Notes under the pieces: model-generated | Database searches by the model: none | The model's input: the letters and a program-made list of their open reading frames with translations, nothing else | Told to the model about the DNA's origin: nothing | Made by a program: the position numbers and the translations under genes | Shown here: positions 13,884 through 38,564 of the stretch, piece by piece | Numbering within the stretch: the stretch's first letter is position 1 | Layout of the letters: each line of letters opens with the position of its first letter | Source: a virus | IMG/VR virus record: IMGVR_UViG_3300032238_000599 | Location: 64,001-128,000 of that record | Direction: 5' to 3' (one strand) | DNA: 64,000 nucleotides

Positions 13884-13895
13884 TTCGACATTAGA

Positions 13896-13901
13896 TAAAT
13901 A
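13896..13901 (+). promoter_or_regulatory. Late promoter core TAAATA
   Basis: GATAAATA followed by GAGG Shine-Dalgarno before 13923. Confidence 0.6.
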
Positions 13902-13922
13902 TCATTAGAGGAATAAAAAAAC

Positions 13923-24092: not shown

Positions 24093-25718
24093 ATGCCATT
24101 AGTAGGAACATTCGGTGGTAATACCACAGCAAAAGGTGTAGGTGGATATCACCCTGGTGCAGGACCAGTTGACACCACATCCAGCGCCGCGCAAGGTGTA
24201 ATTGGTACTACTACTGTATCAGGAAGTTTAAACGGTACAATTTATAACCTAAGTGCTAGTTCAGTTACTGGACAGCGTATTACACAAGACCCATTTTTTA
24301 TGGGTAACGTTACCTACAGTTTAGTAGGTGCAACTAGTGGAACAGCTAGTAATACTAACGGTACGAACGTCACTGTTAGTACAACTACCGGATTATATAC
24401 TGGACAAGCAATTTATTTTTCTGGTTACGGCACCGGCGCTTTAAATAGTGCAAGTACTAGTGCGGCTTTAACACCCGGGCAGTATTGGATTACAGCAATT
24501 GGCAGTGGCGTTATCAGCATTGCAAGAACAAGCGGGGGAACTGCTATTAACTTTGGCGGATCTACTACGTTAACTGGCGTTAACTGGACTACAGGTCTCC
24601 CTCCGGGATTTAGCTTTAACGCTTCGACTGGAACTATTAGTGGTAGTTTAACAATTAATGCAAATACAAACCCGGGTGAAAAAGCCGGTATTATTAATCA
24701 CACAGTTCCAACAACTGGTGCAAACAGTATTGGTACAGGACCGTATAATCCTAACGGCATTCAGCCAGCAACTTATCGTGTAACTGTCCGTGCCACAGAT
24801 AATAGTTATGCTAACAACTATTCAGAGCGTTACTACGATATTAACTTGTCAGTTCCATTTGCTTACAGACAAATTATTACTGTAGGATATACTCAAGCGG
24901 GATATGCTAATTCAAGTACATGGACCGACAGTCAAAAAACAGTTGGTGCTAATGATACAACAACTTTATTAGCCGGCAACCAAGAAGCAAGCCATAACTA
25001 TCAAATGAGCGCACATAACTATACACGTTCATTTACCTATGGAGCTTCTGGTACGCATTGCGGAGCGGCAAGTAACATTATTGCATTTAACATGAGAACA
25101 GAAACTAACAACACTTCGGGTTATACTAGAAGTTATCCAGTTAGCCAGAATAACTGTTCTACATTAATGAACGAATTTTATTATGCATGGATTTCAAGCC
25201 CAGCAACAGCTTCAGTGTATGAGCATAATATGACCACTGAAACAATCACCGGCGCAGTTCCAGGCATGAGTTTATCAAATCCTCTAGTTGGAGGAAACTG
25301 GGACGGTTACGGATGGTGGGGCCCAAGCGGCGCAACCATGAACTATGCTACACGTACTAACACATCCGGGCGCGGCGGCCAAGGCGGCGACGCTCAGTGT
25401 AAAGTTCTAATGAACAAACAACGTTACCAGTATGCGGGGCGTGAAGGCTGTCCAAATAGTAACTGGCGCCGCAGTGATATGACTACTGCTACAACAAGTG
25501 ATAGCGCACCAGGAAAGTACTATAACTCAGGTGAAGAAAATCACACAACTGTACAAGATTGGGGCTACTGTGTTGGATATTATGGTCCTGCTGGACACGT
25601 TAATACCAGTTACAAGTTTGTTTATGCTACAGAAGCCAACTCTGGATCTACTTCATCATTAGACTGTAAAGGTGGACACCCGGGAAACAGCTCAGCAACA
25701 GCGGCATGGCGAGATTAA
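24093..25718 (+). CDS. Putative fibre-tip adhesin/receptor-binding protein with Ig-like domain and C-terminal propeller-like region
   Basis: AGGAG SD; Gly-rich MPLVGTFGG start; LPPGFSFNASTGTISG and VTVRATD Ig-like motifs; C-terminal ~290 aa with kelch-like GY..GY repeats and several Cys. Confidence 0.55.
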   Translation: MPLVGTFGGNTTAKGVGGYHPGAGPVDTTSSAAQGVIGTTTVSGSLNGTIYNLSASSVTGQRITQDPFFMGNVTYSLVGATSGTASNTNGTNVTVSTTTGLYTGQAIYFSGYGTGALNSASTSAALTPGQYWITAIGSGVISIARTSGGTAINFGGSTTLTGVNWTTGLPPGFSFNASTGTISGSLTINANTNPGEKAGIINHTVPTTGANSIGTGPYNPNGIQPATYRVTVRATDNSYANNYSERYYDINLSVPFAYRQIITVGYTQAGYANSSTWTDSQKTVGANDTTTLLAGNQEASHNYQMSAHNYTRSFTYGASGTHCGAASNIIAFNMRTETNNTSGYTRSYPVSQNNCSTLMNEFYYAWISSPATASVYEHNMTTETITGAVPGMSLSNPLVGGNWDGYGWWGPSGATMNYATRTNTSGRGGQGGDAQCKVLMNKQRYQYAGREGCPNSNWRRSDMTTATTSDSAPGKYYNSGEENHTTVQDWGYCVGYYGPAGHVNTSYKFVYATEANSGSTSSLDCKGGHPGNSSATAAWRD

Positions 25719-25723
25719 ACTAA

Positions 25724-25729
25724 TAAATA
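25724..25729 (+). promoter_or_regulatory. Late promoter core TAAATA
   Basis: AATAAATA upstream of 25759, followed by GGAG SD. Confidence 0.55.
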
Positions 25730-25758
25730 TTCAACAATTTTATTAGCACGGAGACACC

Positions 25759-26652
25759 ATGATCGAAAGAACCGATAGAATATTTGAGTATCATCAAAAA
25801 TTTCAATTAAGCAAACCAAATACTGACATATCAATGCTTTCAGAGCGAGAGGTAGAAATTATCAAAATCGCTATGAACAAAGAATGGACAAACCCTAAAT
25901 TTAAAATGAAGTGGTTTGTTGGTAACGCACAAGTTACAGCATTTGCACAGTTCCGTCAATTTTTAATGGAACTAAAAGCTAAAGAAGAAGCCATCGAAGA
26001 CTTAGAATATAACGTTGCCAAGTATGATATTGAACTTACTCGCAACGAACGTCTTATTGAAGAAAGCCCAGACGATTTAGAACGTAAACTAGCAGAGTTA
26101 GATATTTGGCGTTTAAAACGAGATAAAGAACGTACACAACGTATTCTTCAAAATTGGTATCTAGAGCGCCAGCAATTCTGTGACCTACTAGTAGAAATGT
26201 CAGGAACTGATGCAGTTAAACTGCCTGACGGTAGTGGTAGAACTTACTGGGATATTATTGGAACCGATGAAGAAGATGTCTATGAAAAAGTGTTATGGAC
26301 AAATCGTCTAGCAAAACAAGCGGCCTGCGACATTATGTTCTATGGGCGTATTAATACCGGTAACATGGATGCTATTTTACAAATGGATCCTGATCAACAG
26401 GCTGAAACATTTGCACTAGCAACTGACTTTAGCATTAAAATACAAACACATTTACATCAGTTACAAGCAAATGCCGAAGAAACTGCTAGACTTCCAGGTG
26501 CACCGTTTGATCTTAAAGAACTAAAAGCTCCTAATATTCCATTAGACGACGGTATAGCACAGAAATTAGATACTATCATGCCTCCCGCAACACCAATTAT
26601 GCCTGAGGATGATAAAGATGACAAGGATTTATTAAATGTATATAATGTTTGA
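25759..26652 (+). CDS. Hypothetical acidic, coiled-coil-rich protein (possible fibre assembly chaperone)
   Basis: 297 aa, GGAG SD, heptad-like ELKAKEEAIEDLEYNVAKYDIEL region. Function is inferred from position only. Confidence 0.6.
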   Translation: MIERTDRIFEYHQKFQLSKPNTDISMLSEREVEIIKIAMNKEWTNPKFKMKWFVGNAQVTAFAQFRQFLMELKAKEEAIEDLEYNVAKYDIELTRNERLIEESPDDLERKLAELDIWRLKRDKERTQRILQNWYLERQQFCDLLVEMSGTDAVKLPDGSGRTYWDIIGTDEEDVYEKVLWTNRLAKQAACDIMFYGRINTGNMDAILQMDPDQQAETFALATDFSIKIQTHLHQLQANAEETARLPGAPFDLKELKAPNIPLDDGIAQKLDTIMPPATPIMPEDDKDDKDLLNVYNV

Positions 26653-27202
26653 ATCCCAACACTGGGAAGATCAGCGAATTAAGTACTTTGGAAGTACCTG
26701 GTTTATGCAGATTGCACACATCGATGAAGCAGACGAAGCAAGCGTTGATATTACTCCACTAAAAGGTATTGTAATTTCAAAAGATCTAGCCTATTGCTTA
26801 AAGATGCATCATGCAACTGAAGGTAAAATCATTGTCCGTGAACTAAAAGAAATTATGGACTATGCAGACTATGAAAGCCCAACAGAATTAAACTACGGTG
26901 ATAATGGTGGTCGTAAAGATTATTACACGCTAACCGAACAGCAATTGGCTAACTCTATCCAGTTTATTAAAAATATGATGACTATTTTCATGGACAATTA
27001 TGGACATAGAAAAGATCCTGCTGCCTTAATGGAACTGAAAAAGCAAGTGATGAATTTGCCTGCTACCGGTACTGTAGAAAATTTAAACAATGCTCAAATG
27101 TTTATGAGTACATATTTTGAATATCAAACTCCATATACACAACATAGAGAAAAAACACCGTCAATTGGCATACGCTTTCAATTTGATGGTGAAGGTTGGT
27201 AA
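26636..27202 (+). CDS. Hypothetical protein
   Basis: 188 aa, AAGGA SD, overlaps the upstream gene by 17 nt (translational coupling). Confidence 0.6.
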   Translation: MYIMFESQHWEDQRIKYFGSTWFMQIAHIDEADEASVDITPLKGIVISKDLAYCLKMHHATEGKIIVRELKEIMDYADYESPTELNYGDNGGRKDYYTLTEQQLANSIQFIKNMMTIFMDNYGHRKDPAALMELKKQVMNLPATGTVENLNNAQMFMSTYFEYQTPYTQHREKTPSIGIRFQFDGEGW

Positions 27203-27225
27203 ACTCACAACTTCACTAAACAAAC

Positions 27226-27260
27226 AAGATGCTACAATAAGTAATGTAGCATCTTTTTTT
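27226..27260 (+). terminator. Intrinsic terminator-like hairpin with TAAGTA in the loop
   Basis: Perfect 11-bp stem AAGATGCTACA / TGTAGCATCTT, 8-nt loop ATAAGTAA, followed by a T run. Confidence 0.7.
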
Positions 27261-27271
27261 ACGGCAGAATT

Positions 27272-28954
27272 ATGAGAAAAATCTTTAGCGTACCATTAAA
27301 TCCAAAACTAAACGAACAACAATTTAACGAGTTTTATGAGTTTTTAAAAACTTATAAAGACTACATTCGTGACGTATATTTTACTAGCCGAATTGCTCCA
27401 TTTAAGCAAGACGCAATGGGTGATGTATTCTTTATTCAAGAAGATGAAAGCCAAGCAATTCATGCGGCACTACATATTCAGCGTACACTAGACATTCCTG
27501 TTAGCGCAACCTTTAACAATATCAATGTTCCGCCTACGCAACAAAACTTAGATTTGTTTATTAAAAACTTTAAACCATTGTATGATGCTGGGGTACGCAA
27601 TGCTACTATTCCACACACACATTGGATGGCAACAGGACAAATTAAACGTGCATTTCCAGACTTGTATGTTAAAAACACAATCCTACGTAATGTAACAACA
27701 GCACAAGAAGTAGTTAATCTTGCAGGCTATGGGTTTGACTACATTAACCTTGATAGAGATTTAATGCGTAACAGAGATGCACTATTACAAATTAAAAAAG
27801 CCAAGCAATATGTTAAAGATACAATGGGCAAAGACATTGCTATTAGCCTGTTAGCTAATGAGGGATGTGCTGGTGGTTGTTCAATGATGGATGAACACTA
27901 TCACTTTAACAACACTAGAGATAGTGCTCGTCCGCAATACTTTAACGATCCTATTAGTCGTGTTAGTTGCCCAAGTTGGGACGTACAAGATCCCGCTATC
28001 TTCTTAAAACGTGCAAACTTTACTCCATGGAGAGCAGATTGGGACGAGTTTATCGATGAGCTAGGCATTGATAGTATTAAAATGCATGGTAGAGAAGCAC
28101 CTACTCGCCTATACGAAACTATGGATATGATTGAACGTTATGCGGCTGGAGAAGAATTACTGTACCCTACATTTGAACAATACCTAGAAGACACTAATCT
28201 AGCAGAAAAGCCTATTACTGTATGGCGTGAAAAAATTAAAAATTGTAAGTTTGAATGTTGGGATTGTCAATATTGTGATAAAGTCTACAAAGCCAAGTCA
28301 GATATAGAAGCTAGTGAACTAGTTAAACACGTAGCAGCCTGCATCGAACAAAGTGGTGTACCTACAATTAAGTTAGATATTCCAGGATTAACTAGCATTC
28401 GTGTACAATCATTGCTTAATAGATTAGCGCAAGGTGTAGATACTTACTTAGAAGTGGGCACAGCATTAGGCGCAACATTCTGCGCGGTAATCAAAGACAA
28501 TCCAATTACTGCTATTGCTATTGATAACTGGGTTGACAATGTACAACCTCGTAATGAAGGGCGTGTTGCTATGCCACAAAACGACATTCAAGTATTTGCA
28601 GAGAATGTACGCAAGTATCAAGGCAATAGTAAAATTACAGTATTGAATGGTAATTGTTTTAATACAGATGTTACACCATTTGCAGGACAAGTTAAGATGT
28701 TTTTCTATGATGGCCCTCATGAAGTTGAGGCATGTAAGCTAGCAATGACACACTTTGCTCCTGCGCTAGCAGAAGAAGCTATTGTAATTTTTGATGATGC
28801 CAACTGGAATAATGTAGTTGAAGGTGCAAAGCAAGGCATTGAAGCCGCAGGACTAAAAGTCAGCTATGAAAAAATACTATTAAATGATGAAGAAGATGCT
28901 AACGCTTGGTGGAACGGTTTGTATATTGCAGTCGTGAGGAAACCTAATGATTAA
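27272..28954 (+). CDS. Peptidase-U32-family-like Fe-S protein fused to a class I SAM methyltransferase (Methyltransf_24-like)
   Basis: N-terminal: INLDRDL, LLANEGCAGGC, DSIKMHGRE (cf. U32 LKIEGR), CKFECWDCQYC. C-terminal: YLEVGTALGAT, FFYDGPH, IFDDANW. Confidence 0.65.
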   Translation: MRKIFSVPLNPKLNEQQFNEFYEFLKTYKDYIRDVYFTSRIAPFKQDAMGDVFFIQEDESQAIHAALHIQRTLDIPVSATFNNINVPPTQQNLDLFIKNFKPLYDAGVRNATIPHTHWMATGQIKRAFPDLYVKNTILRNVTTAQEVVNLAGYGFDYINLDRDLMRNRDALLQIKKAKQYVKDTMGKDIAISLLANEGCAGGCSMMDEHYHFNNTRDSARPQYFNDPISRVSCPSWDVQDPAIFLKRANFTPWRADWDEFIDELGIDSIKMHGREAPTRLYETMDMIERYAAGEELLYPTFEQYLEDTNLAEKPITVWREKIKNCKFECWDCQYCDKVYKAKSDIEASELVKHVAACIEQSGVPTIKLDIPGLTSIRVQSLLNRLAQGVDTYLEVGTALGATFCAVIKDNPITAIAIDNWVDNVQPRNEGRVAMPQNDIQVFAENVRKYQGNSKITVLNGNCFNTDVTPFAGQVKMFFYDGPHEVEACKLAMTHFAPALAEEAIVIFDDANWNNVVEGAKQGIEAAGLKVSYEKILLNDEEDANAWWNGLYIAVVRKPND

Positions 28955-30473
28955 TAAAGTCAGACGTATTACAATATTTGGTGGTGGAACTAGTGGTTGG
29001 TTAAGTGCCGCATACTTGTCACGCAACCTAAAGATACCTGCAGAAATTACACTAATTGAAGATACTAGTCTAGGACCCATTGGTGTAGGAGAAGGCACAC
29101 AGCCTATGACTGCTCGGTTTCTACATGAGTGTGGAATTGAACCCAAAGACTGGTTAAAAGACAGCAATGCTGTGTTCAAATATGGTGTTGAACTTATTGG
29201 ATGGAATGACGAGCCTTACTTTGTAGACAATGATGTGCCTATTAACTGTATTGTAGGCAGTAAGTTGTTTACCAGCGATTACTTTATTGACAAACCCTAC
29301 AGCGAAGTTGCCGCGTGGCACCCTGCTTATCAACTAGCCAAGGCAAATGTGTCTAGCAAGTTTGACGAATACCTCGACGTTAATCACGGTAGTGGACCCG
29401 AAAGTTATGGTGCTGTACACTTTGATGCTTATGCTATCCTACGTAGTATTAAAAACATCTTAGGCGACAGTATCAAACACATTGACACAAAGATTACAGA
29501 CATTAGACAAGACGTCTACGGCATTACAGAACTTGTAGGTGTCGATGGAACCAAGTATACTGCTGACTTGTTTGTTGATTGCAGTGGATTTCAAAGTCTG
29601 TTACTAGAAAAAACACTAAAAAGCCCCTTCACAAGTTACAGTAACATTTTACCTTGTGACAGCGCAGTAGTATTTCAGACACAGTATAAGGATCCGCAGA
29701 AAGAATGTCATCCATATACTAAAGCAACTACAATGAACGCTGGATGGCGTTTTACTATTCCCACATTTAAACGTGTAGGTAACGGGTATGTTTACAGTAG
29801 CAAACACATTACACCTGAGCAAGCTGAACAAGAAATGCGTGAAGCGTTAGGTGAGTTTGAAGCACCAGCAAGACATTTAAAAATGAAGTGTGGCGTACAC
29901 AAAGAAACAGCAGTTAAAAATGTCTGTGCTGTAGGACTTGCCGCTGGATTTATTGAACCCTTAGAAGCAACAGGCATTACATTTACTACAGCCGCAGTTA
30001 AATCGTTAACAGAATTACTAAACATGACTAACAATGTTTGGAATGATTTCTGCAGACAAAACATCAATCGCGGGTTTTACGAAATGACGACTGAGATTCT
30101 AGCATTTGTATGGGCACATTACCATTTCAGTAGCCGCAATGACACTGAGTTTTGGCAAGACATACGTAAGCAAGAGTTAAAAAATGCACCCAAAGAAGTT
30201 CAAGAAATACTAAGTTTCTTTTTGCCACGACCCCAGAAATATATCTTTATAAATCCTAGTAGTATGTTCTGTAACTTTCAGTGGTTTACCATGTTACATG
30301 CAGGTGGCGCATACAAGAATGTTGCTAGCGATCTAAGTGAAAAACAAAAAGCCTATACTAAGTATTTCTTAGATAGCCACACAGCTAGAGTAAATCTAGC
30401 TAAAGAAACATTCCCTAATCAATATGACTATTTAGAAACATGGTACACTGATTGGGACTTATCGGAGTTTTAA
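28947..30473 (+). CDS. Flavin-dependent halogenase, tryptophan halogenase (PrnA/RebH) family
   Basis: GGGTSG FAD motif, PIGVGEGT, catalytic-Lys context NAVFKYG, DLFVDCSGF, GWRFTIP, GFIEPLEATG. Confidence 0.85.
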   Translation: MINKVRRITIFGGGTSGWLSAAYLSRNLKIPAEITLIEDTSLGPIGVGEGTQPMTARFLHECGIEPKDWLKDSNAVFKYGVELIGWNDEPYFVDNDVPINCIVGSKLFTSDYFIDKPYSEVAAWHPAYQLAKANVSSKFDEYLDVNHGSGPESYGAVHFDAYAILRSIKNILGDSIKHIDTKITDIRQDVYGITELVGVDGTKYTADLFVDCSGFQSLLLEKTLKSPFTSYSNILPCDSAVVFQTQYKDPQKECHPYTKATTMNAGWRFTIPTFKRVGNGYVYSSKHITPEQAEQEMREALGEFEAPARHLKMKCGVHKETAVKNVCAVGLAAGFIEPLEATGITFTTAAVKSLTELLNMTNNVWNDFCRQNINRGFYEMTTEILAFVWAHYHFSSRNDTEFWQDIRKQELKNAPKEVQEILSFFLPRPQKYIFINPSSMFCNFQWFTMLHAGGAYKNVASDLSEKQKAYTKYFLDSHTARVNLAKETFPNQYDYLETWYTDWDLSEF

Positions 30474-30914
30474 ATGTTAAAAAAATTAACCACAACTAGC
30501 TATGAAATTTACGAAGTTGAGCAACGTGAGTCCACTGACGATAACTATCTAGCAGTAAAAATTTGGAAAGATAGACAAAAGCTACGCCGCTGGCTTATTG
30601 GCTTAATGAACGACCGAGAAGTTATTCTTACTTGGCGCGACAGCGGACAAGAAGTAACCGCAGTAGCTACCCGTAAGTTAGGCAAATATGATATTGCACC
30701 AGTATTACCATCAGATGACGACATGCCTAAGATTAAAGATATTGTTAATCGAGAAGAAGTAGAAGAAATTCGTCACATAGCGTTTTATTCTATGCCTGAC
30801 AAGCAAATTATTGCAGTTTATTTAGACGACATTAGTCACTTTATTGTGTCTAATGAAGGCTTAAAAGAGCTAACAAATAAGCTAGTTGCAGCCGAACCTT
30901 TAATCACAGTATGA
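30474..30914 (+). CDS. Hypothetical protein
   Basis: 146-aa ORF abutting the upstream gene and overlapping the downstream one; GGAG SD. Confidence 0.55.
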   Translation: MLKKLTTTSYEIYEVEQRESTDDNYLAVKIWKDRQKLRRWLIGLMNDREVILTWRDSGQEVTAVATRKLGKYDIAPVLPSDDDMPKIKDIVNREEVEEIRHIAFYSMPDKQIIAVYLDDISHFIVSNEGLKELTNKLVAAEPLITV

Positions 30915-32095
30915 AAAGACGATTAGGAATCATCGGCGGCGGCACCGCAGGTATAATGAGTTTATGCCATTTTCTAACTTATTTGGACAGCGAGTGGGAA
31001 GTTGTCTTAGTCTACGATCCTACAGCAGATATATTTGATGCACCAACTAGTGCTACTCCGGGATTTGTATCTGTCCTAGAAAGAGCATTTAATTTTAGTT
31101 TATTAGATACTTTGGAACCTCTCAATGCTACACTAAAGTTTGGTTCCATTTGGAAAAATTGGAGGCAGCAAACATTTAATTTGCCTAACATTGGAGGCAA
31201 TGCGGCTATACATTTTGATAGTCTTAAATTTAGAGACTATGTACTACCTAAATTAGAAGAGCATTGGCCTAATAAATTTAAATCTATCACAGGACATCTT
31301 GACAGTCTTACAAATAAAGAAACACATGTTAGTGCCGTAGTCAACGGTGTTGAACACGTATTCAATTATGCTATGGACTGTCGTGGCGCACCTAATGACT
31401 GGGCGGACTATGAAGTATTAACTGATATGCCAGTTAATCATTCTTTTGTTCACAGTAAGAAATCGCCAGGTGACTGGACATATTCTGGGCAGAATGCAAC
31501 TCCTTATGGTTGGATGTTTGAAATTCCCTTAGGTGATAGGCAATGCTATGGATATCATTACAATGATAATATCACTAGCAAAGAAGATGCATTGGCAAAT
31601 TTTGCAGAAATTATCAACGTCCCAGTTGAAGAATTGACAGTAACAGAATATCAATATAAAAGCTATTATGCAAACAAAGTGTTTGACGGCAGGATAATGA
31701 AGAACGGGAATCGAGCTGTATTCTTTGAACCTATTAGTGCAAACTCTGTTTACATTTTTGATCAAGCCAACAGAATTTTTTATGCTTATTTGGCTAACAA
31801 TATCAAAACCCCTGAAATTGTAAATCGAGAGTTTGTAAAAGTAGCAAATGATTTGCGAGAATTAATTTGCTATTACTATCACGGTGGTAGTATATACGAC
31901 ACTAAATTCTGGGACTATGCTAAAGAAGTTACCGGCAACGTTATTAGAAAAAGTGAAACAATTAAAGAAATTAGTTCCCAGTGTAAAAATTGGGTAGATA
32001 AACAAGCACCAGTTTATGCCCCAACTTGGTTTTTTACAGGTATACAACTTTACCATTTAGACAAAAATTTTGGCTACGGGTATTTTTCACAATAA
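30911..32095 (+). CDS. Second, shorter and divergent tryptophan-halogenase-like flavoprotein
   Basis: GGGTAG, NATLKFG, MDCRG, GWMFEIP, FFEPISANS. Confidence 0.75.
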   Translation: MKRRLGIIGGGTAGIMSLCHFLTYLDSEWEVVLVYDPTADIFDAPTSATPGFVSVLERAFNFSLLDTLEPLNATLKFGSIWKNWRQQTFNLPNIGGNAAIHFDSLKFRDYVLPKLEEHWPNKFKSITGHLDSLTNKETHVSAVVNGVEHVFNYAMDCRGAPNDWADYEVLTDMPVNHSFVHSKKSPGDWTYSGQNATPYGWMFEIPLGDRQCYGYHYNDNITSKEDALANFAEIINVPVEELTVTEYQYKSYYANKVFDGRIMKNGNRAVFFEPISANSVYIFDQANRIFYAYLANNIKTPEIVNREFVKVANDLRELICYYYHGGSIYDTKFWDYAKEVTGNVIRKSETIKEISSQCKNWVDKQAPVYAPTWFFTGIQLYHLDKNFGYGYFSQ

Positions 32096-32098
32096 GTA
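32093..32098 (+). promoter_or_regulatory. Late promoter variant TAAGTA
   Basis: AATAAGTA lies 5 nt before the ATG at 32104, the same spacing as TAAATA before 43740 and 47412. Confidence 0.45.
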
Positions 32099-32103
32099 AT
32101 CAT

Positions 32104-32721
32104 ATGACATATCCACTAACCAACGACACTATAATGGCAACAGCATTAATGCCACCTTGGGCAAAACTAGACAATGTGTTTACTACAGAGGAACTAGATA
32201 GAATCATAGCCTACTGCTCACAGTTTCAATTAGATGCTGGCGTAATTGGTAGTTACAATAAACAGACTGTAGATAAAGAACTACGCAAAAGTCAAATTAA
32301 AATGCTAGAGCCCAATAGCGAAACACAATGGATTTTTGAAAGACTAAATGCGGCAATATTTGATGCTAATAATTTCTTTTTTAGATTTAACATAGTAGGT
32401 TACGACTTCTTACAGTACACAGAGTACAGCACTTTCGGTGATAACTACGGTTTCCACACTGATATGAGCTACGGCAAAGACGGTCGCGCTGAACCACACG
32501 CTCATAGAAAACTAAGTTTCATTCTAGTACTAGCTGAAGAAACTGAATACCAGGGCGCAGAGTTAGAGTTCATGGTATCCACAGACGAAAAAGTTAAATG
32601 CGTCCAAAAAAAAGGTGACTTAATTTTATTCCCATCTTGGATACTACATCGCATTACTCCTATTATTAGTGGCAAACGTAAATCATTAGTTGGTTGGGTA
32701 ACAGGACCTAAATTCAAATGA
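32104..32721 (+). CDS. 2OG-Fe(II) oxygenase (prolyl-hydroxylase/PKHD-like)
   Basis: HTD (HxD), RKLSF, FPSWILHRITPI, RKSLVGW. Start moved to ATG 32104 to avoid overlap with the upstream gene. Confidence 0.85.
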   Translation: MTYPLTNDTIMATALMPPWAKLDNVFTTEELDRIIAYCSQFQLDAGVIGSYNKQTVDKELRKSQIKMLEPNSETQWIFERLNAAIFDANNFFFRFNIVGYDFLQYTEYSTFGDNYGFHTDMSYGKDGRAEPHAHRKLSFILVLAEETEYQGAELEFMVSTDEKVKCVQKKGDLILFPSWILHRITPIISGKRKSLVGWVTGPKFK

Positions 32722-33314
32722 CACAAATTAAACTTGTTCCTTTATTTCATTCTGATCTTTTTATCTTAGAAAACGTAGGTACTCGAGAACAAATCGATGC
32801 TCTAGTAAAACAAATTGCCGCCGAGAAAAAATCAGGCGCGGTAACACAGCCTCGCTCCAATGAAGGGTGCTGGCGAAGCAGTAGTATGTGGACTGATATT
32901 GATTGGTTATACAAACGTATTGAAGAATTATTACAAACTGCTATAGACCACTACACTAAAATTGATAATGATTTTAAACCAGGTCCTGGAGTTACAGTAG
33001 AACAATGGACAAATGTAAATGATCCTGGATCAAGAAATGTGTTTCACGCTCATAAGTCGGCAGCATTTTCAGTGTGCTACTACATGCAAGCATCTGGGAC
33101 CGGAGCATTACGGTTTGTAAATCCTAGTAACATTCTTAATGACTGCAATCACATAAGTCCCTTTACAAGAGGATTTCCTTACTATCCTAATGATAGAGAT
33201 TTAGTGTTGTGGCCAGCATGGCTTCCGCACGAAGTAGAACCAAACTTATCAAAAAAACAACGCATTAATATGGCGTTTGACATAACTTTTAAAGACACTA
33301 CATCTCCTCAATGA
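32718..33314 (+). CDS. Putative 2OG-Fe(II) oxygenase (TIGR02466-like)
   Basis: WTNVN...HAH...SVCYY, WPAWLPHEVEPN, RINMAFD. Confidence 0.8.
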   Translation: MTQIKLVPLFHSDLFILENVGTREQIDALVKQIAAEKKSGAVTQPRSNEGCWRSSSMWTDIDWLYKRIEELLQTAIDHYTKIDNDFKPGPGVTVEQWTNVNDPGSRNVFHAHKSAAFSVCYYMQASGTGALRFVNPSNILNDCNHISPFTRGFPYYPNDRDLVLWPAWLPHEVEPNLSKKQRINMAFDITFKDTTSPQ

Positions 33315-33347
33315 TAAGTAAATCAGCACTACATTGTAGTGCTTTTT
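33315..33347 (+). promoter_or_regulatory. TAAGTA motif followed by palindromic hairpin AGCACTAC-ATT-GTAGTGCT and a T run
   Basis: TAAGTA at 33315-33320; perfect inverted repeat at 33325-33343; then TTTT and the AAGGAG SD of the next gene. Confidence 0.5.
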
Positions 33348-33358
33348 AAGGAGAAAAG

Positions 33359-34399
33359 ATGGACTTCATCACAACTGTCCTGTTAAAGGACATTTCGTAT
33401 CTATGGATGATATTCTTCATTATGATCACTGCCGGACTAGCAAAAGAGTATCAACTCTTTGCCCCGGCATTTGCCTATGTAAGAAATACATTCCGTAGCA
33501 ATAAGTTCGTTGTAGTACTCTTAAGCGCAATTGGAGGAGTTCTTCCAATTGAAGGCCGAGTCACTGTGTCAGCAGGTTTGCTTGATACAGTAGCACCTAA
33601 GGAAGGGCATGGCCGCGAGAAGTTGGGTATTGTTGATTACTTGAGTACGCACCACTATTATCTGTGGAGCCCTCTTGAGAAAACAGTTATCCTACCTATT
33701 GCGGCGTTTGGTCTAACTTACGGTGCGTGGCTTGGCTTAATTGCACCCTTGTTAGTTGTCAGTTTTGTATTCATCGCTTGGTACATTTGGTCACAAGTAC
33801 ATGATGAAGAAATTACAATTACGCCCGGAAACTTTAAACTATCGGCAGTTTTACGCAATGTTTTACCAATGTTTATAGCCATTGGTTTTTACATCTATGA
33901 AAGCAAGTGGATGATTGCCTGTTTTGGTTTCCTAACACTATACTACATCATCATTAGCCAACAATGGAATATTAAGAAATTACTTTCTTATGTTCGATGG
34001 GATGTGTTAGCATGGGTAGGTGCAGTTATCGCATTAGGTAACTACATGAAAACTTATGATAGCGCATGGCAAACTATGCTAAAAGGAAGTATGCTCGACC
34101 CGCATACATTCGTAGGTATGGTAGCTATATCAGCTATTGGTTTCTTAGCTAGCTTCTTAATGGGTAGCAGTGGTAAATTTATTGCAATTGCCGTATTAAT
34201 GTCTCAAGTCTTCGGTGTTGAGTACTTTTTATGGTTCTTTGCTATTGACTTTGCTGGCTACTTAATTAGTCCTACACACAAATGTGTTATGATCGGTAAT
34301 CGATATTTTGGTACACCTGTGGGAACTTACTATAAAGCACTAGGAACCTGGGGAGGATTGTTGCTAGCAACTGCTGGCGCAATTACTTTCTTAAATTAA
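33359..34399 (+). CDS. Polytopic membrane protein, probable ion-transporter superfamily (DUF401/permease-like)
   Basis: Many hydrophobic segments in two halves; SP motifs (LWSPLEK, GYLISPTHKC) in equivalent positions; AAGGAG SD. Confidence 0.6.
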   Translation: MDFITTVLLKDISYLWMIFFIMITAGLAKEYQLFAPAFAYVRNTFRSNKFVVVLLSAIGGVLPIEGRVTVSAGLLDTVAPKEGHGREKLGIVDYLSTHHYYLWSPLEKTVILPIAAFGLTYGAWLGLIAPLLVVSFVFIAWYIWSQVHDEEITITPGNFKLSAVLRNVLPMFIAIGFYIYESKWMIACFGFLTLYYIIISQQWNIKKLLSYVRWDVLAWVGAVIALGNYMKTYDSAWQTMLKGSMLDPHTFVGMVAISAIGFLASFLMGSSGKFIAIAVLMSQVFGVEYFLWFFAIDFAGYLISPTHKCVMIGNRYFGTPVGTYYKALGTWGGLLLATAGAITFLN

Positions 34400-34840
34400 G
34401 TCGATTAAATCAAATACAGTCTGAAGTTTTGTTCGGATTGTTTTGTTTGAGAAACTGTTTCGAAGCCCCTGATGAAGGGGCTTTGGCGCATAATCAATTG
34501 TGCTCCATGCCCATGCACAATGTTCTTCGCTTAGTACAGGAATAAATTCATCTTGTATGACGCACAAGTAAGTATGAAAATTAAACACTCTATCATTACT
34601 CACAAAAGTTTCAAGTGGAATAGTTTTTAAAATTTTAGGATGGCTACCAATTTCTTCAGAGACTTCACGTTGTAACCCCTGCCAAGGTGTTTCACCTTCA
34701 ACGTTAGTGCCACCAACTAGCCCCCAAGTTCCCTTATGTTTGCCGTTGTTTTTTTGAAGTAATAAAAATCTTCCAGTAGACTTTGCGTAGAATAACGCAC
34801 CACTGCAAACAATTTGATCTGTTATAATTCTAGGGACCAT
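34391..34840 (-). CDS. NUDIX hydrolase
   Basis: Nudix box GGTNVEGETPWQGLQREVSEEIG. Confidence 0.85.
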   Translation of the reverse strand: MVPRIITDQIVCSGALFYAKSTGRFLLLQKNNGKHKGTWGLVGGTNVEGETPWQGLQREVSEEIGSHPKILKTIPLETFVSNDRVFNFHTYLCVIQDEFIPVLSEEHCAWAWSTIDYAPKPLHQGLRNSFSNKTIRTKLQTVFDLIDLI

Positions 34841-36300
34841 GATCCTGCTCTATACTCACCTTCAAAGGACTTGACCCATGCTAGGCCTGCCCATTTGTAC
34901 TGTACTCCAGTATATATGTTAGTTTGATAGACTGTTGGATCAGATTCGGAATGACTAGTTGAATTAAAAATTATATGCCATGTATCGCCATCCCACTCAA
35001 TAATGTCGTTTTCTTTAGCAACAAAATCACTGCCGTCATTATTTTTCCAAGCATCCGGACCATCATCGTTAGAATTGTCACCCAAGTCTTCAATAATTAA
35101 ATATCGAGTTCCTGCGCTAGGATTAAGTCCAGAACCTTTAGGTCCAGTTTTTTGAGGATCAATAATAGCATCAAAGGTTCCAGGACTACTTACACGAACA
35201 GTTGAATACTCGCCAAATCCTGCAATTAATGTATTGGTTGGGTAGGTATCTTGGTCCCATGATACACTCATTAACGTATCATCCATGGGATTTAATGCAA
35301 CAGTTCCGACTATCTCATGTCCATCGTCTTGTATTAATCTGATAATACTAAAACCTGCACGATACATTCCGGGATACTGATCTAAAACTGTACGCCAATT
35401 GATAGCGGGCCCTATTTTTTCTGCAATAGCAATAGCATCTCTTGATGGAATAACAGCTTCGTGAACATCTAATAATTTAGCAACCCCACCGTAAACTTGT
35501 AGACCAAAATTGCTAACTGTAGCGTGTGCTCGAGCAATTGGAGCATTTGGTAAATTAGTACTACCAGTAAGACCAGGATCGACCCCTAAGCCGTCGATAT
35601 AACCGTTATCTCCATAATTTGCACCAGTGAATACATTACTAATAATACTTGTAATAATACCCAATTGCTTTACTTTAACTGGAGGACTAATCCATACAGG
35701 TGTGCTAACAGTTAATGTAGCAATATCAATAGGACTATCTGCTCCTACCGGCACAGAGCGAGAACTAAAATTAGTACTATCTAGATTTAAAACACTTAAA
35801 CTTGTCCAGTCAATATAGTTGTCTGTTGTTTGTAACTCGACACTAGGATTAAACAACACTAGAATTTGTTCCATTAACTGTAATTTTTGTTCTGCACTAG
35901 TAGTCCACAAATCAACTTTTAAAGTTAACTTATACGGAGTAGGCATTAGGCGCTCAACAGTATAGTTCTCACCTTGTTCTCCAGTGTATTCGTAGTTTCC
36001 TGTACTTGGGTTGATCCAAGTATTACGCTCACGAATATGTACTTTACCTACATATGTTTGATCAGCAAGTCTAGATGTATCTAGTTCTAATCCACTAATA
36101 TAAACAGCAATTCGTGGTGCAGAATTAATTTTGTTATCTGAGTTTTGTCTAATAATATTAGCAACTTGTCTATCTTGATCGCCATACATTACTGGTACAC
36201 GCACAAGTGTACCGTCACTATATTGAACTACAAAGTTACTAAAAAAACGTATAACTTGTACAATATATCGTCTTATCTGTCCGTCATAAAAATATTGCAT
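34822..36300 (-). CDS. gp15: Tail sheath stabilizer/tail completion protein (T4 gp15-like) with C-terminal extension
   Basis: N-terminal YFYDGQIRRY...FSNF, VPVMYG, MPTPYKL, QLMEQILVLFNP resemble gp15; located next to the neck genes. Confidence 0.7.
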   Translation of the reverse strand: MQYFYDGQIRRYIVQVIRFFSNFVVQYSDGTLVRVPVMYGDQDRQVANIIRQNSDNKINSAPRIAVYISGLELDTSRLADQTYVGKVHIRERNTWINPSTGNYEYTGEQGENYTVERLMPTPYKLTLKVDLWTTSAEQKLQLMEQILVLFNPSVELQTTDNYIDWTSLSVLNLDSTNFSSRSVPVGADSPIDIATLTVSTPVWISPPVKVKQLGIITSIISNVFTGANYGDNGYIDGLGVDPGLTGSTNLPNAPIARAHATVSNFGLQVYGGVAKLLDVHEAVIPSRDAIAIAEKIGPAINWRTVLDQYPGMYRAGFSIIRLIQDDGHEIVGTVALNPMDDTLMSVSWDQDTYPTNTLIAGFGEYSTVRVSSPGTFDAIIDPQKTGPKGSGLNPSAGTRYLIIEDLGDNSNDDGPDAWKNNDGSDFVAKENDIIEWDGDTWHIIFNSTSHSESDPTVYQTNIYTGVQYKWAGLAWVKSFEGEYRAGSWSLEL

Positions 36301-37706
36301 TATAAATCAGCCTTTGGTTTAAGAGCTTTACTCAATGATTGACGTTCAGGAACGCTTTCTGTAAATAATTTCCATTGAATAGTATCGCCAACAACAGCAG
36401 GTTCAGGTTGGAATGTAATTAGCGCATTTCCACTAGTTCCTAAAGTAACTATGCCATTACGTTTTACATCATTATAAAATACTGTGGCAACCATGCCTGG
36501 TACATATGGTTTGTTTGTTTGAACACTAGATCTATTAGTGTTGTCACACACATAGACATCAAATCCAATTTGTACAGATCCTGTGATATTGCTATTATTA
36601 ATAAAACTAGTTTTTTGTGTTTGACGAGTTGGATTCGTTATTGGGTCAATTGGTTTAGTAGGATCCTCATTAGTCATAGTCATGCGTACAGAATCTTCAA
36701 CTTTAATCCACATGATACCATCGAATCGAAATAGTCTATTAGGTAAAAAGTCTGTACGCAAAAAGAAATCATCGTTAGTTGGATTATTTGGAAAAGAAAT
36801 ACCATGCCCAAAATAAGCACCGTTTGGTGCAATACCATCACCTAACAAGTATCCAGTATATCCACTTCTCTTTGGTCGAGAAGCAATATCGCTAGCGTTA
36901 AGTTCAGTTGAACTAGCGTCTAACAATGTACTGATAGCCGGATCAGTGTCGTCAACGTCAACGGTTCTAAGTAAAGGCCTGCCAGTATTTTGATCAACAG
37001 CTAGTGTATAAAATTGTTGAGTTTCGTATCCACTCTTTGCCGCGTTAGCTTCTGCTTCAGCAAGGATAGCATCATTAATTCCTAACTCGACAGATCTAGT
37101 ACTTAATGCTTCACCGACAGTAACGGCGCTTTCGGATCCGTCTGCTAATAGTAATTTAGAATTTAGTAAGTCAGCAAATTGTTGGCTGTCTGTAATTTTC
37201 TTAAGTTTTAAACGATATAAATGTGGCCACCAAGTTTGACTAAATCCTTCACTAGCACGACCTACATCTTCAATAACGTAATATCTTGGAAGGGCAACTT
37301 CGTAATCATTAAGAGCAAAGTCATCACGTAAATGTGGAAACTCTAATACGTCTCCGCTTAGTGGTTTTCTTCCAACTAGTTTTATCCAATCATTGATATG
37401 TACAGTTAAAAATACTGTATCATTATCAATAAACAAACCAAATTGACTTAAATTAAAATCAATATTTGCAACATTATAATGACCACGAACTTTGTAGATA
37501 TCTTTATCGTATTTACGATCTCGATTTTCTAAAAATACAAGATCTTGTATTTGTGTTACATCTTTAAAATTGTCACCTTCACCGGTTCCAATGTATTTGT
37601 GCAGGTACAATTCAGTAGCGCCAATCTGAAACATTTCAGAAATCTGGCGATCAATGAAAGAGTAATCCTGTCCTTTTTCGGGCTTAAATAGACTTAATCG
37701 TGGCAT
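36300..37706 (-). CDS. gp14: Neck/head-closure protein (T4 gp14-like), extended
   Basis: DLVFLENRDRKY, LSQFGLFIDND, PLSGDVLEFP, YYVIEDV. Start reassigned to MPRLSLF (37706). Confidence 0.6.
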   Translation of the reverse strand: MPRLSLFKPEKGQDYSFIDRQISEMFQIGATELYLHKYIGTGEGDNFKDVTQIQDLVFLENRDRKYDKDIYKVRGHYNVANIDFNLSQFGLFIDNDTVFLTVHINDWIKLVGRKPLSGDVLEFPHLRDDFALNDYEVALPRYYVIEDVGRASEGFSQTWWPHLYRLKLKKITDSQQFADLLNSKLLLADGSESAVTVGEALSTRSVELGINDAILAEAEANAAKSGYETQQFYTLAVDQNTGRPLLRTVDVDDTDPAISTLLDASSTELNASDIASRPKRSGYTGYLLGDGIAPNGAYFGHGISFPNNPTNDDFFLRTDFLPNRLFRFDGIMWIKVEDSVRMTMTNEDPTKPIDPITNPTRQTQKTSFINNSNITGSVQIGFDVYVCDNTNRSSVQTNKPYVPGMVATVFYNDVKRNGIVTLGTSGNALITFQPEPAVVGDTIQWKLFTESVPERQSLSKALKPKADL

Positions 37707-37713
37707 AGTAACA

Positions 37714-37733
37714 TATTTATCGACAGCTAAATA
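37714..37733. promoter_or_regulatory. Back-to-back divergent late promoters for gp14 (-) and gp13 (+)
   Basis: TATTTA at 37714-37719 (TAAATA on minus) and TAAATA at 37728-37733 within a 45-nt gap. Confidence 0.65.
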
Positions 37734-37751
37734 TTGTAAGAGAGGAAATAT

Positions 37752-38535: not shown

Positions 38536-38564
38536 TTGACATAGCTGTGTGCTGGTTATATAAT
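38536..38564 (+). promoter_or_regulatory. Perfect sigma70 consensus (early) promoter
   Basis: TTGACA (38536-38541) - 17 nt - TATAAT (38559-38564), then GGAGG SD and ATG 38586. Confidence 0.85.

What the first reader, a model, noticed from the sequence alone, without database searches (positions are those of the whole stretch)
24093..34399. Candidate virion-tailoring system: fibre-tip gene followed by a late-expressed cassette of hydroxylating, halogenating and methylating enzymes
Seen: directly behind the putative adhesin (24093) is a tightly coupled, same-strand run of two unknown proteins, a U32-MTase fusion, two halogenase-like flavoproteins, an unknown protein, two 2OG-Fe(II) oxygenases and a transporter. 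The run carries the TAAATA/TAAGTA motifs that precede structural genes (25724, 27238, 32093, 33315). I saw no sigma70 consensus here like those before the dNMP kinase, 56169 and primase. Established: all these enzyme families add OH, halogen or methyl groups, as in natural-product tailoring clusters; phage halogenases and 2OG oxygenases are usually filed as auxiliary metabolic genes. Inference: late timing plus position suggests the substrate is the virion itself (for example the Trp/Tyr/His/Cys-rich tip domain) or a host surface receptor, i.e. a phage-encoded post-translational modification pathway.
Basis: partly seen in the sequence, partly recalled or inferred. Interest (0 to 1): 0.8.

Follow-up and report, generated by a model that had tools for sequence, protein, structure and literature searches.

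The report
Phage fibre cassette with inserted tailoring enzymes
Behind the tail-fibre genes of an uncultured marine jumbo phage sits a widespread, unstudied gene cassette (a propeller-shaped adhesin-like protein, helper proteins, an iron-sulfur 'U32'-type enzyme fused to an O-methyltransferase, and a membrane permease). In this lineage it has been split by a mobile set of halogenase and oxygenase genes. The molecule these enzymes modify is still unknown.

Summary
The genes are as described, but the run has two parts.

**Part 1: a conserved cassette (24093-28954 plus 33359-34399).**
- It encodes a Kelch-type propeller protein, a phrog_1409 helical protein, a small protein, a divergent U32-like Fe-S barrel fused to a TrmR-like O-methyltransferase, and a DUF401 permease.
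- Propeller, helper and U32 keep this order in 43 of 44 related viral contigs. The order recurs in cyanomyoviruses, in Ralstonia jumbo phage RP12 and in a Leptospirales chromosome.
- Its P-HM2 orthologues are transcribed late.

**Part 2: an inserted island (28947-33314).**
- It holds two halogenase-family flavoproteins, a small protein and two 2OG-Fe(II) oxygenases.
- Only the nearest relatives carry it. In other phages such genes lie in metabolic-gene islands or between the terminase genes.
- Halogenase/oxygenase arrays in cyanophages were described in 2010.

**Verdict.**
- Late timing is supported.
- Linkage to the tip gene holds for the U32-methyltransferase, not for the halogenases and oxygenases.
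- The likely core chemistry is C-H to C-OH to C-OCH3. The target could be the propeller protein, an envelope or small molecule, or a nucleic acid.
- No paper I found describes the cassette.
- This scan has already noted and followed up the same cassette on other DNA, with the same conclusions.

The parts
24093..25718 (+). 541-aa adhesin-like protein. The N-terminal part is Ser/Thr/Gly-rich. The C-terminal 300 aa form a Kelch-type six-bladed beta-propeller. It is the counterpart of the cyanophage 'sericin-like' T4-GC351.
   Evidence: phrog_1417. Cyanophage hits annotated 'sericin 1 precursor-like'. AF2 pLDDT 80.7. KLHL17 Kelch domain 6hrl at Z 28.3, rmsd 2.5 over 266 residues.
25723..25729 (+). 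ATAAATA late-promoter-like motif, 36 nt before the 297-aa gene.
   Evidence: 7 of 9 + strand ATAAATA sites lie within 80 nt upstream of gene starts.
25759..26652 (+). 297-aa helical helper protein (phrog_1409). It always lies just upstream of the U32 gene.
   Evidence: phrog_1409 at 1.5e-40. Present in 43 of 44 loci. Homologues in RP12 ORF140 and in the Leptospirales locus.
26636..27202 (+). 188-aa small protein of unknown function. This is the variable slot of the cassette.
   Evidence: No family hit. About 30% identity only in L006, L007 and L009.
27226..27262 (+). Intrinsic terminator-like hairpin (11-bp stem, T7 tail) with ATAAGTA in its loop.
27272..28306 (+). U32-like Fe-S TIM-barrel domain of the 560-aa protein. 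Invariant Cys: C199, C203, C233, and C325-x3-C-x2-C-x2-C335.
   Evidence: A1 alignment. AF2 pLDDT 92.9. 5d88 top by Foldseek and by VIA-align, Z 16.6. Atlas.
28448..28798 (+). Class I O-methyltransferase domain of the same protein. The gene ends at 28954.
   Evidence: Methyltransf_24 at 35.2 bits. The best solved relative of the domain profile is TrmR/YrrM 5zw3, E 3e-4.
28947..30473 (+). 508-aa flavin-dependent halogenase homologue. It has GGGTSG, the Lys aligned with the catalytic Lys, WRFTIP and FIEPLEATG. It overlaps the U32 gene by 8 nt.
30474..30914 (+). 146-aa protein of unknown function that travels with the halogenase in the closest relatives.
30911..32095 (+). 394-aa short, divergent halogenase-family flavoprotein (GGGTAG, WMFEIP). 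It lacks the C-terminal region of Trp halogenases.
32104..32721 (+). 2OG-Fe(II) oxygenase, PKHD/YbiX-like (H118-x-D120 ... H182).
32718..33314 (+). 2OG-Fe(II) oxygenase of the 2OG-FeII_Oxy_5 / TIGR02466 type.
33325..33348 (+). Hairpin followed by a short T run. It closes the six-gene enzyme unit.
33359..34399 (+). DUF401 / TIGR00529 polytopic membrane protein (permease-like). It is the last member of the conserved cassette.
   Evidence: Pfam 40.9 bits. Hydrophobic segments. It directly follows the U32 gene in 10 IMG/VR loci, in RP12 and in Leptospirales. All 12 phage records with DUF401 also carry the U32 gene.

Best explanation
The region is a composite late-expressed locus.

**The core is a mobile five-part cassette.** It moves as a unit between unrelated phages and occasionally into bacteria. 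Its members are:
- a protein ending in a Kelch-type beta-propeller (24093);
- a phrog_1409 helical helper (25759);
- a small variable protein (26636);
- a very divergent U32-like iron-sulfur TIM barrel fused to a cation-dependent, TrmR/COMT-like O-methyltransferase (27272);
- a DUF401 permease-like membrane protein (33359).

**Inferred chemistry of the core.** By analogy with TrhP plus TrmR and with UbiU/V plus UbiG, the fused enzyme hydroxylates an aromatic or heteroaromatic C-H without O2 and then O-methylates it, giving a methoxy group.

**The insert.** In this phage lineage five further genes were inserted between the fused enzyme and the permease: two flavin-dependent halogenase homologues, a small protein and two 2OG-Fe(II) oxygenases. 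They lie in the same terminator-bounded unit (27272-33314).
- They may add halogen and OH groups to the same target.
- They may equally be an independent mobile module that landed at a permissive junction.

**Shown:** the families, the folds, the gene order, its conservation, and late transcription of the orthologues.

**Inferred:** the chemistry.

**Unknown:** the target. My odds are:
- about 35% a side chain of the propeller or fibre protein;
- about 40% a small molecule or envelope component handled with the permease, which could be the receptor that the adhesin reads;
- about 10% RNA or DNA;
- about 15% something else.
For: **Families and folds**
- Families.
- U32 fold: pLDDT 92.9; 5d88 at Z 16.6 against 12.8 for the next TIM barrels; Atlas neighbours; seven invariant Cys.
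- O-methyltransferase: Pfam. The nearest solved relative is TrmR 5zw3.
- Propeller: Z 28.3.

**Cassette conservation**
- Propeller, phrog_1409 and U32 lie in the same order in 43 of 44 IMG/VR loci with 4 kb or more upstream. This holds for 24 of the 25 loci not used to build the profiles.
- P-HM2 and S-CAM4 have the same order behind a giant fibre gene.
- RP12: collagen-like fibre, propeller-like ORF142, ORF141, phrog_1409, U32, DUF401.
- Leptospirales chromosome: a 1523-aa protein with the same propeller at its C-terminus (hhalign 96%, E 4e-9), then the helper, a small protein, U32 (37% identity) and DUF401 (39% identity). Its flanks are cellular genes.
- All 12 phage records with DUF401 also have the U32 gene, including S-CAM4, where the two genes lie 58 kb apart.

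**Insert**
- The halogenase follows the U32 gene only in L006-L009.
- DUF401 follows it directly in 10 loci, and NUDIX-gp15-gp14 in six others.
- Halogenase or oxygenase genes occur upstream in 0 of 32 loci and within 5 kb downstream in 6 of 37.

**Late timing**
- Motifs.
- PHM2_096-101 are classed 'Late'.
Against: - No Pfam or NCBIfam U32 hit for this protein, so the hydroxylase assignment rests on fold and on Cys conservation.
- The match to TrmR is weak (23.7 bits).
- Close relatives of the methyltransferase domain are fused to glycosyltransferase and sulfotransferase domains, which hints at sugar rather than aromatic O-methylation.
- RP12 and Leptospirales lack the methyltransferase, so methoxylation cannot be the cassette's universal output.
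- No enzyme activity, substrate or virion location has been shown for any cassette member.
- A strong terminator lies between the helper genes and the enzyme unit.
- The only bacterial example found is sporadic: 1 of 301 Spirochaetota genomes searched.
Confidence: 0.6

Rival explanations
1. All the enzymes from 27272 to 33314 form one pathway that hydroxylates, halogenates and methylates residues of the virion, in particular the aromatic-rich propeller of the 541-aa protein.
For: - The propeller and U32 genes are inseparable.
- The six enzyme genes overlap within one terminator-bounded unit.
- Timing is late.
- No scaffold-building enzyme (NRPS, PKS) is present.
- The propeller is richer in Tyr (8.3% against 4.8%), His and Cys than the other proteins. 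Y271, Y303 and Y497 are invariant.
- When tailoring genes are present, they always sit directly after the U32 gene.
- S-RIM44 also carries halogenases and oxygenases between its fibre and neck genes.
Against: - Most cassettes have no halogenase or oxygenase (31 of 37 loci).
- In Syn1, P-SSM2 and S-MbCM6 the halogenase and oxygenase lie in metabolic-gene islands. In HTVC008M they lie between the terminase genes.
- No U32 enzyme or Trp-halogenase-family enzyme is known to me to act on a folded protein.
- The Cys and most of the Trp and His residues of the propeller are not conserved.
- A conserved permease is hard to fit to a cytoplasmic protein substrate.
Confidence: 0.2
2. The halogenases and oxygenases are an ordinary mobile 'auxiliary metabolic' module acting on free host metabolites such as Trp, other aromatics or 2OG-linked substrates. 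They have no functional tie to the cassette. They sit here because the junction after the U32 gene, in the fibre-to-neck hyperplastic interval, tolerates insertions.
For: - Their position varies between phages.
- The halogenase plus 2OG-oxygenase pairing is kept wherever the genes sit.
- Such arrays were described in Syn9 and read as secondary-metabolite enzymes (PMC2938197) or as 2OG/nitrogen-linked enzymes (PMC3037559).
- The cyanophage halogenase VirX1 has a solved structure (6qgm). From my own knowledge, it halogenates small aromatics in vitro.
Against: - In at least five lineages the insert lies exactly after the U32-methyltransferase gene, on the same strand, often overlapping it.
- In this window it is enclosed with that gene between two hairpins.
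Confidence: 0.35
3. The U32-methyltransferase fusion makes 5-hydroxy and then 5-methoxy pyrimidines in tRNA, rRNA or phage DNA. This is the one-chain equivalent of Bacillus TrhP1/TrhP2 plus TrmR.
For: - The only characterised U32 plus O-methyltransferase pairing known to me is yrrMNO.
- The nearest solved relative of the C-terminal domain is TrmR itself.
- JGI names several homologues 'predicted O-methyltransferase YrrM'.
Against: - Pfam detects no U32 C-terminal domain and no RNA-binding domain.
- There are no tRNA genes in the window.
- The fixed partners are a propeller protein and, in many lineages, a permease. Neither is expected for nucleic-acid modification.
- RP12 and Leptospirales lack the methyltransferase.
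Confidence: 0.1
4. The cassette modifies a host envelope component, namely the receptor or a lipid-linked or glycan molecule that the neighbouring propeller adhesin recognises. Progeny would then not be lost on debris, or superinfection would be blocked. This is analogous to receptor-masking or seroconversion genes placed next to tail-fibre genes.
For: - A permease-like membrane protein is conserved.
- Relatives of the methyltransferase domain are fused to glycosyltransferases and sulfotransferases.
- Timing is late and the position is next to the adhesin gene.
- The bacterial copy sits beside a giant LamG-domain protein and next to an ECF sigma factor gene.
Against: - Most cyanophage cassettes lack DUF401 (42 of 52 loci).
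- There is no glycosyltransferase in the cassette.
- No experimental precedent links U32 proteins to envelope chemistry other than quinones.
Confidence: 0.15

Closest known systems
TrhP (YegQ; B. subtilis TrhP1/TrhP2 = YrrO/YrrN) with TrmR (YrrM): tRNA U34 to ho5U to mo5U
   Same: - A U32-type protein is paired with a cation-dependent O-methyltransferase.
- TrmR (5zw3) is the nearest solved relative of the C-terminal domain.
- The U32 fold is the top structural match of the N-terminal domain.
   Different: - Here the two are fused in one chain.
- The barrel is too divergent for PF01136.
- It has a C-x3-C ... C pattern plus an extra C-x3-C-x2-C-x2-C cluster.
- No U32 C-terminal domain was detected.
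- The fixed neighbours are a propeller protein, a helical helper and a permease, not tRNA-related genes.
UbiU/UbiV (with UbiT) followed by UbiG: O2-independent ring hydroxylation and O-methylation in ubiquinone synthesis
   Same: The logic is the same: a U32 Fe-S protein hydroxylates an aromatic ring and an O-methyltransferase follows. Accessory non-enzymatic proteins take part, and the substrate is membrane-associated.
   Different: - No SCP2/UbiT-like protein is present.
- There is one U32-like chain, not a heterodimer.
- The context is a phage late structural module.
- No sequence-level similarity was detected.
Cyanophage dioxygenase plus tryptophan-halogenase arrays (Syn9 gp49 region; Iyer et al. 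2010, PMC2938197) and the cyanophage halogenase VirX1 (6qgm)
   Same: - Flavin-dependent halogenase homologues sit next to several unrelated 2OG-Fe(II) oxygenases in a T4-like marine phage.
- hal508 matches VirX1 at 2.4e-51 and PrnA/RebH-type enzymes at about 1e-59 to 1e-68.
   Different: - Here the array is inserted inside the U32 cassette and co-transcribed with it.
- Both halogenase homologues carry WxFxIP in place of WxWxIP.
- The second homologue is only 394 aa long.
Protein-derived quinone cofactor maturation (QhpG/QhpD for QHNDH, LodB for LodA)
   Same: As I recall the field, flavoprotein and Fe-S enzymes hydroxylate aromatic residues of a partner protein, with a transporter in the same cluster. 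hal508 has a faint N-terminal LodB hit (E 0.0028). The QHNDH propeller subunit appears low in the fold list (Z 14.1).
   Different: There is no significant homology to QhpG, QhpD, LodA or LodB. This is an analogy only.

Membership tests
Peptidase U32 superfamily (PF01136; RlhA, TrhP, UbiU/UbiV) | Match to the PF01136 profile above the gathering score | tested here: not met
   There is no hit for the window protein even at E 10. Only 1 of 37 homologues hits, at E 0.033.
Peptidase U32 superfamily (PF01136; RlhA, TrhP, UbiU/UbiV) | TIM-barrel fold closest to a solved U32 protein | tested here: met
   5d88 is the top Foldseek hit. By VIA-align it scores Z 16.6, rmsd 3.2 over 227 residues, against 12.8 for the next barrels. 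Atlas neighbours carry PF01136 in 20% of their members.
Peptidase U32 superfamily (PF01136; RlhA, TrhP, UbiU/UbiV) | Conserved Cys ligands of a 4Fe-4S cluster | tested here: inconclusive
   C199, C203, C233 and C325, C329, C332, C335 are invariant in 37 sequences. Equivalence to the UbiU/UbiV ligands and actual cluster binding were not tested.
Peptidase U32 superfamily (PF01136; RlhA, TrhP, UbiU/UbiV) | O2-independent, prephenate-dependent hydroxylation | not testable with these tools
   This needs biochemistry.
TrhP+TrmR type mo5U pathway | U32 C-terminal domain or another RNA-binding module, and a tRNA-related context | tested here: not met
   Pfam finds only Methyltransf_24. There are no tRNA genes in the window. 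The neighbours are fibre-type genes.
Cation-dependent class I O-methyltransferases (TrmR/YrrM, COMT-like; Pfam Methyltransf_24/3) | Profile match and SAM-binding motif | tested here: met
   PF13578 at 35.2 bits against a cut-off of 26.3. The LEVGTALG motif is present. The profile's best solved relative is TrmR 5zw3, E 3e-4.
Cation-dependent class I O-methyltransferases (TrmR/YrrM, COMT-like; Pfam Methyltransf_24/3) | Acidic metal-binding triad | tested here: inconclusive
   D124, D152 and D153 (domain numbering) are invariant in 36 sequences. Structural equivalence was not checked.
Flavin-dependent (tryptophan-type) halogenases, PF04820 | Profile match, GxGxxG, catalytic Lys and Glu | tested here: met
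   hal508:
- 322.6 bits.
- GGGTSG present.
- K78 aligns with the Lys of the PDB halogenases.
- FIEPLEATG present.

hal394:
- 90.8 bits.
- GGGTAG and FFEPISANS present.
- The Lys is assigned by eye only.
Flavin-dependent (tryptophan-type) halogenases, PF04820 | WxWxIP motif | tested here: not met
   The motifs are WRFTIP (hal508) and WMFEIP (hal394). In both the second Trp is Phe. Halogenating activity is therefore not assured.
2OG-Fe(II) oxygenases | Profile match and HxD/E...H iron triad | tested here: met
   The first oxygenase scores 49.8 bits on PF13640 and has H118-T-D120 ... H182. The second scores 54.1 bits on PF13759. The triad of the second (H110/H112 ... H171) was not resolved.
Kelch-type beta-propeller | Six-bladed propeller fold | tested here: met
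   Z 28.3 and 27.1 to the KLHL17, KLHL12 and KEAP1 Kelch domains. No Pfam Kelch repeat was detected, so this is fold-level only.
DUF401 / TIGR00529 membrane proteins | Profile match and polytopic membrane topology | tested here: met
   PF04165 at 40.9 bits against a cut-off of 24. There are about eight hydrophobic segments. Transport activity is unknown for the whole family.
   This is met for the U32-methyltransferase (43 of 44 loci). It is not met for the halogenases and oxygenases (6 of 37 loci, and elsewhere in other phages).
   This needs mass spectrometry. I found no virion proteomics for a cassette-bearing phage.

The most novel reading that the evidence does not exclude
The cassette is a self-contained system that installs a methoxy-aromatic modification or cofactor on the Kelch propeller of a phage adhesin. 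In this lineage the modification would also be hydroxylated or halogenated. An O2-independent U32-type Fe-S enzyme would then be acting on a protein side chain for the first time. Phages would tune receptor binding by enzymatic chemistry on the fibre tip rather than by sequence change alone.
Probability: 0.2. Interest if true: 0.85.

Novelty: new variant of a known kind. Interest (0 to 1): 0.55.

Why it matters
**How common it is.** The 560-aa protein has more than 1,800 detectable homologues in public metagenomes and 126 phage genome records. These include cultured Prochlorococcus, Synechococcus and Ralstonia phages. All are annotated 'hypothetical'.

**Why it deserves study.** A conserved, late-expressed enzyme cassette fixed next to the receptor-binding genes of some of the ocean's most abundant viruses is either:
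- a new kind of virion or receptor chemistry; or
- a new use of O2-independent U32 hydroxylation.

**What this window adds.** Phages plug extra halogenases and oxygenases into that cassette. This offers a natural experiment on whether the two sets of enzymes share a substrate.

**Where it can be tested.** Cultured carriers make it directly testable: P-HM2, S-CAM4, S-H25 and RP12 for the cassette, and S-RIM44 for the island.

Tried and rejected
- **Nucleotide search.** A megablast of the whole run against phage records found nothing. Only protein-level relatives exist.
- **Sequence-level family assignment of the N-terminal domain.** Pfam, NCBIfam and PDB searches by sequence gave no U32 assignment. 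Only fold comparison did.
- **PDB sequence search with the methyltransferase domain alone.** No hit. A profile was needed.
- **ESM Atlas on the 297-aa helper.** No usable hit.
- **Complex prediction, U32 domain with the 297-aa helper.** 'No answer' (score 0.00). This is not evidence either way.
- **The look-up of encoding contigs.** Contexts of most stand-alone bacterial U32-like homologues could therefore not be read.
- **The search for related loci with alignment A1.** A single-protein scan of genome contigs gave one bacterial locus.
- **Is the Leptospirales copy part of a prophage or contractile injection system?** Rejected. The sheath and baseplate genes lie 1.7 Mb or more away, and the flanks are cellular genes.
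- **Literature searches for U32 in phages, DUF401, and virion hydroxylation in cyanophages.** None described the cassette. The Syn9 transcriptome paper was not in the library, so halogenase timing in a cyanophage could not be checked.
- **TAAGTA as a promoter hexamer.** Rejected as such: it is equally common on both strands.

Full report
**Setting.**
- The window is bases 64001-128000 of a 144,986-bp IMG/VR viral contig that CheckV rates 39% complete.
- It is a T4-like myovirus. Its 1125-aa sheath is closest, at about 40% identity, to jumbo phages such as Atu_ph07 and PA5oct.
- Gene order on the + strand is: two giant fibre paralogues (2672 and 2961 aa), two small fibre-type genes, then the finding (24093-34399).
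- NUDIX, gp15 and gp14 follow on the - strand. Then come gp13, dNMP kinase, sheath and tube.

**Observation.** Three points need correction.
- *The U32 label.* No sequence profile supports it. Structure does.
  - An AF2 model of residues 1-350 has pLDDT 92.9.
  - Its best match is the U32 protein Mk0906 by Foldseek. An exhaustive VIA-align search gives Z 16.6, against 12.8 for the next TIM barrels.
  - ESM Atlas neighbours are partly annotated U32.
  - Seven Cys are invariant in 37 homologues.
- *Transcription units.* The run is not one uninterrupted unit.
  - An 11-bp hairpin with a T7 tail at 27226-27255 separates the propeller and helper genes from the enzymes.
  - A weaker hairpin at 33325-33343 separates the enzymes from the permease.
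  - Between the two hairpins, six genes overlap or abut.
- *Promoter motifs.*
  - The real late-type signal is ATAAATA. Seven of its 9 + strand copies lie within 80 nt upstream of gene starts. Only 25723 has it.
  - TAAGTA alone is not enriched.
  - ATAAGTA is enriched (5 of 6 upstream). Its copies here lie in a terminator loop or over stop codons.
  - Early-type sigma-70 consensus sites occur before the dNMP kinase gene (38536-38564), before 56169 and before 63420. None occurs in the run.

**What the parts are.**
- *The 541-aa protein.* It has a Ser/Thr/Gly-rich N-terminal half. Its C-terminal 300 aa fold as a Kelch-type six-bladed propeller (pLDDT 80.7; Z 28.3 to KLHL17). It is the counterpart of the cyanophage 'sericin-like' T4-GC351.
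- *The 297-aa protein.* It is helical and belongs to phrog_1409.
- *The C-terminal domain of the 560-aa protein.* It is a Methyltransf_24 domain. The nearest solved relative of its profile is B. subtilis TrmR/YrrM. As I recall, TrmR methylates the ho5U made by the U32 proteins TrhP1/TrhP2. Other close relatives of the domain are fused to glycosyltransferase and sulfotransferase domains.
- *hal508.* It keeps the FAD motif and the catalytic Lys and Glu, but has WRFTIP.
- *hal394.* It is short and very divergent.
- *The oxygenases.* One is PKHD/YbiX-like and the other is TIGR02466-like.
- *The last gene.* It is a polytopic DUF401 protein.

I fetched 70 IMG/VR loci encoding relatives of the 560-aa protein and scanned them with profiles built here.
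- Of the loci with at least 4 kb upstream, 43 of 44 carry propeller, then phrog_1409, then U32, on one strand. This holds for 24 of the 25 loci not used to build the profiles.
- Giant fibre genes lie further upstream.
- P-HM2 and S-CAM4 show the same block between the giant fibre gene and the neck genes.
- Ralstonia jumbo phage RP12 has a collagen-like fibre gene, a propeller-like ORF142 (hhalign E 4e-5), ORF141, phrog_1409, a stand-alone U32-like gene and DUF401. A virion structural gene lies two genes further on.
- A Leptospirales chromosome carries, among cellular genes:
  - a 1523-aa DUF6519/LamG protein whose C-terminus is the same propeller (hhalign 96%, E 4e-9);
  - then the helper, a small protein, the U32-like gene and DUF401.
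- That bacterial copy is sporadic: 1 of 301 genomes searched in the phylum.
- DUF401 directly follows the U32 gene in 10 IMG/VR loci.
- In the phage database, all 12 records with DUF401 also have the U32 gene. This includes S-CAM4, where the two genes are 58 kb apart.

**The halogenases and oxygenases behave differently.**
- They follow the U32 gene in only 6 of 37 loci and never lie upstream.
- The closest relatives (L006-L009) have hal508 plus one or two oxygenases. L021 has one oxygenase between U32 and DUF401. Others go straight to DUF401 or to NUDIX-gp15-gp14.
- In Syn1, P-SSM2 and S-MbCM6 the halogenase sits among talC, petE, hli and psbA. In Syn1 and P-SSM2 a 2OG-oxygenase gene follows close behind it.
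- In HTVC008M the pair sits between the terminase genes.
- In S-RIM44 it lies, as here, between the fibre and neck genes.
- Such arrays were described for Syn9 and interpreted as secondary-metabolite enzymes (PMC2938197). Sullivan et al. tied the oxygenases to 2OG and nitrogen status (PMC3037559).

**Timing.** In P-HM2 RNA-seq the orthologues PHM2_096-101 (fibre through U32-methyltransferase) are all 'Late' (PMC5082946, supplementary file 3). This agrees with the motifs here.

**Interpretation.**
- The finding joins two things. One is a conserved, mobile, late cassette whose enzyme most plausibly converts C-H to C-OCH3. The other is a lineage-specific insertion of tailoring enzymes into the cassette's operon.
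- The fixed association of propeller and U32 in four unrelated settings is the best evidence that the enzyme's function concerns the adhesin, whether as substrate, partner or ligand-maker.
- The equally striking association with a permease, and the known RNA and quinone substrates of U32 proteins, keep a non-protein target at least as likely.
- The tailoring genes land repeatedly right after the U32 gene. This is compatible with a shared substrate, and equally with a permissive junction.

**Relation to earlier notes of this scan.**
- The same cassette has been noted and followed up on other genomes: e1-5951377, e1-5381895, e1-5996741 and e1-5521378.
- I reached the same architecture independently before reading them. 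They did not change my reading.
- One of their leads, that bacterial cousins lie in natural-product clusters, could not be checked beyond the single Leptospirales locus, which shows no such cluster.

**Limits.**
- The complex prediction gave no verdict.
- No virion proteomics exists for a cassette-bearing phage that I could find.
- All functional statements are inference from family, fold and context.

Noticed in passing
window 38536-38564: A perfect sigma-70 consensus (TTGACA, 17 nt, TATAAT) sits directly before the dNMP kinase gene. That gene is an early-type gene wedged between the late neck and sheath genes.
   Followed up: partly
window 34391-37784 (- strand): NUDIX, gp15 and gp14 lie on the opposite strand to all surrounding late genes. 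The NUDIX-gp15-gp14 trio is conserved in related contigs (L008, L010-L013, L023, L043). In cyanophages, gp13, gp14 and gp15 all lie on the same strand as the fibre genes.
   Followed up: partly
window 43037-43663 and 43740-44822: Two consecutive tail-tube-like genes (208 and 360 aa) both hit phrog_4542.
   Followed up: no
L006:5507-8499, L015:6765-8809, L016, L019, L024: Several relatives carry two tandem propeller genes in front of the helper gene. The window has one.
   Followed up: no
L075:9974-11068 (IMGVR_UViG_3300026382_000002, 161 kb): A U32-like gene has no methyltransferase, propeller or phrog_1409 neighbour. It is the only exception among 44 loci.
   Followed up: no
S-CAM4 NC_031900.1, 101.7 kb and 159.6 kb: The U32-methyltransferase and DUF401 genes are both present but lie 58 kb apart. 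This is co-occurrence without linkage.
   Followed up: partly
window 26618-26646: An 11/12 sigma-70-like site (ATGACA, 17 nt, TATAAT) overlaps the start of the 188-aa gene. It is probably chance.
   Followed up: partly
L076:10235-11179 and L081:10458-11060: In the Leptospirales locus a patatin-like phospholipase follows DUF401. An ECF sigma factor gene lies upstream of the giant propeller-tipped protein.
   Followed up: no
window 5865-22808: Two giant fibre paralogues (2672 and 2961 aa) share segments with cyanophage giant fibre proteins at about 30-40% identity.
   Followed up: no
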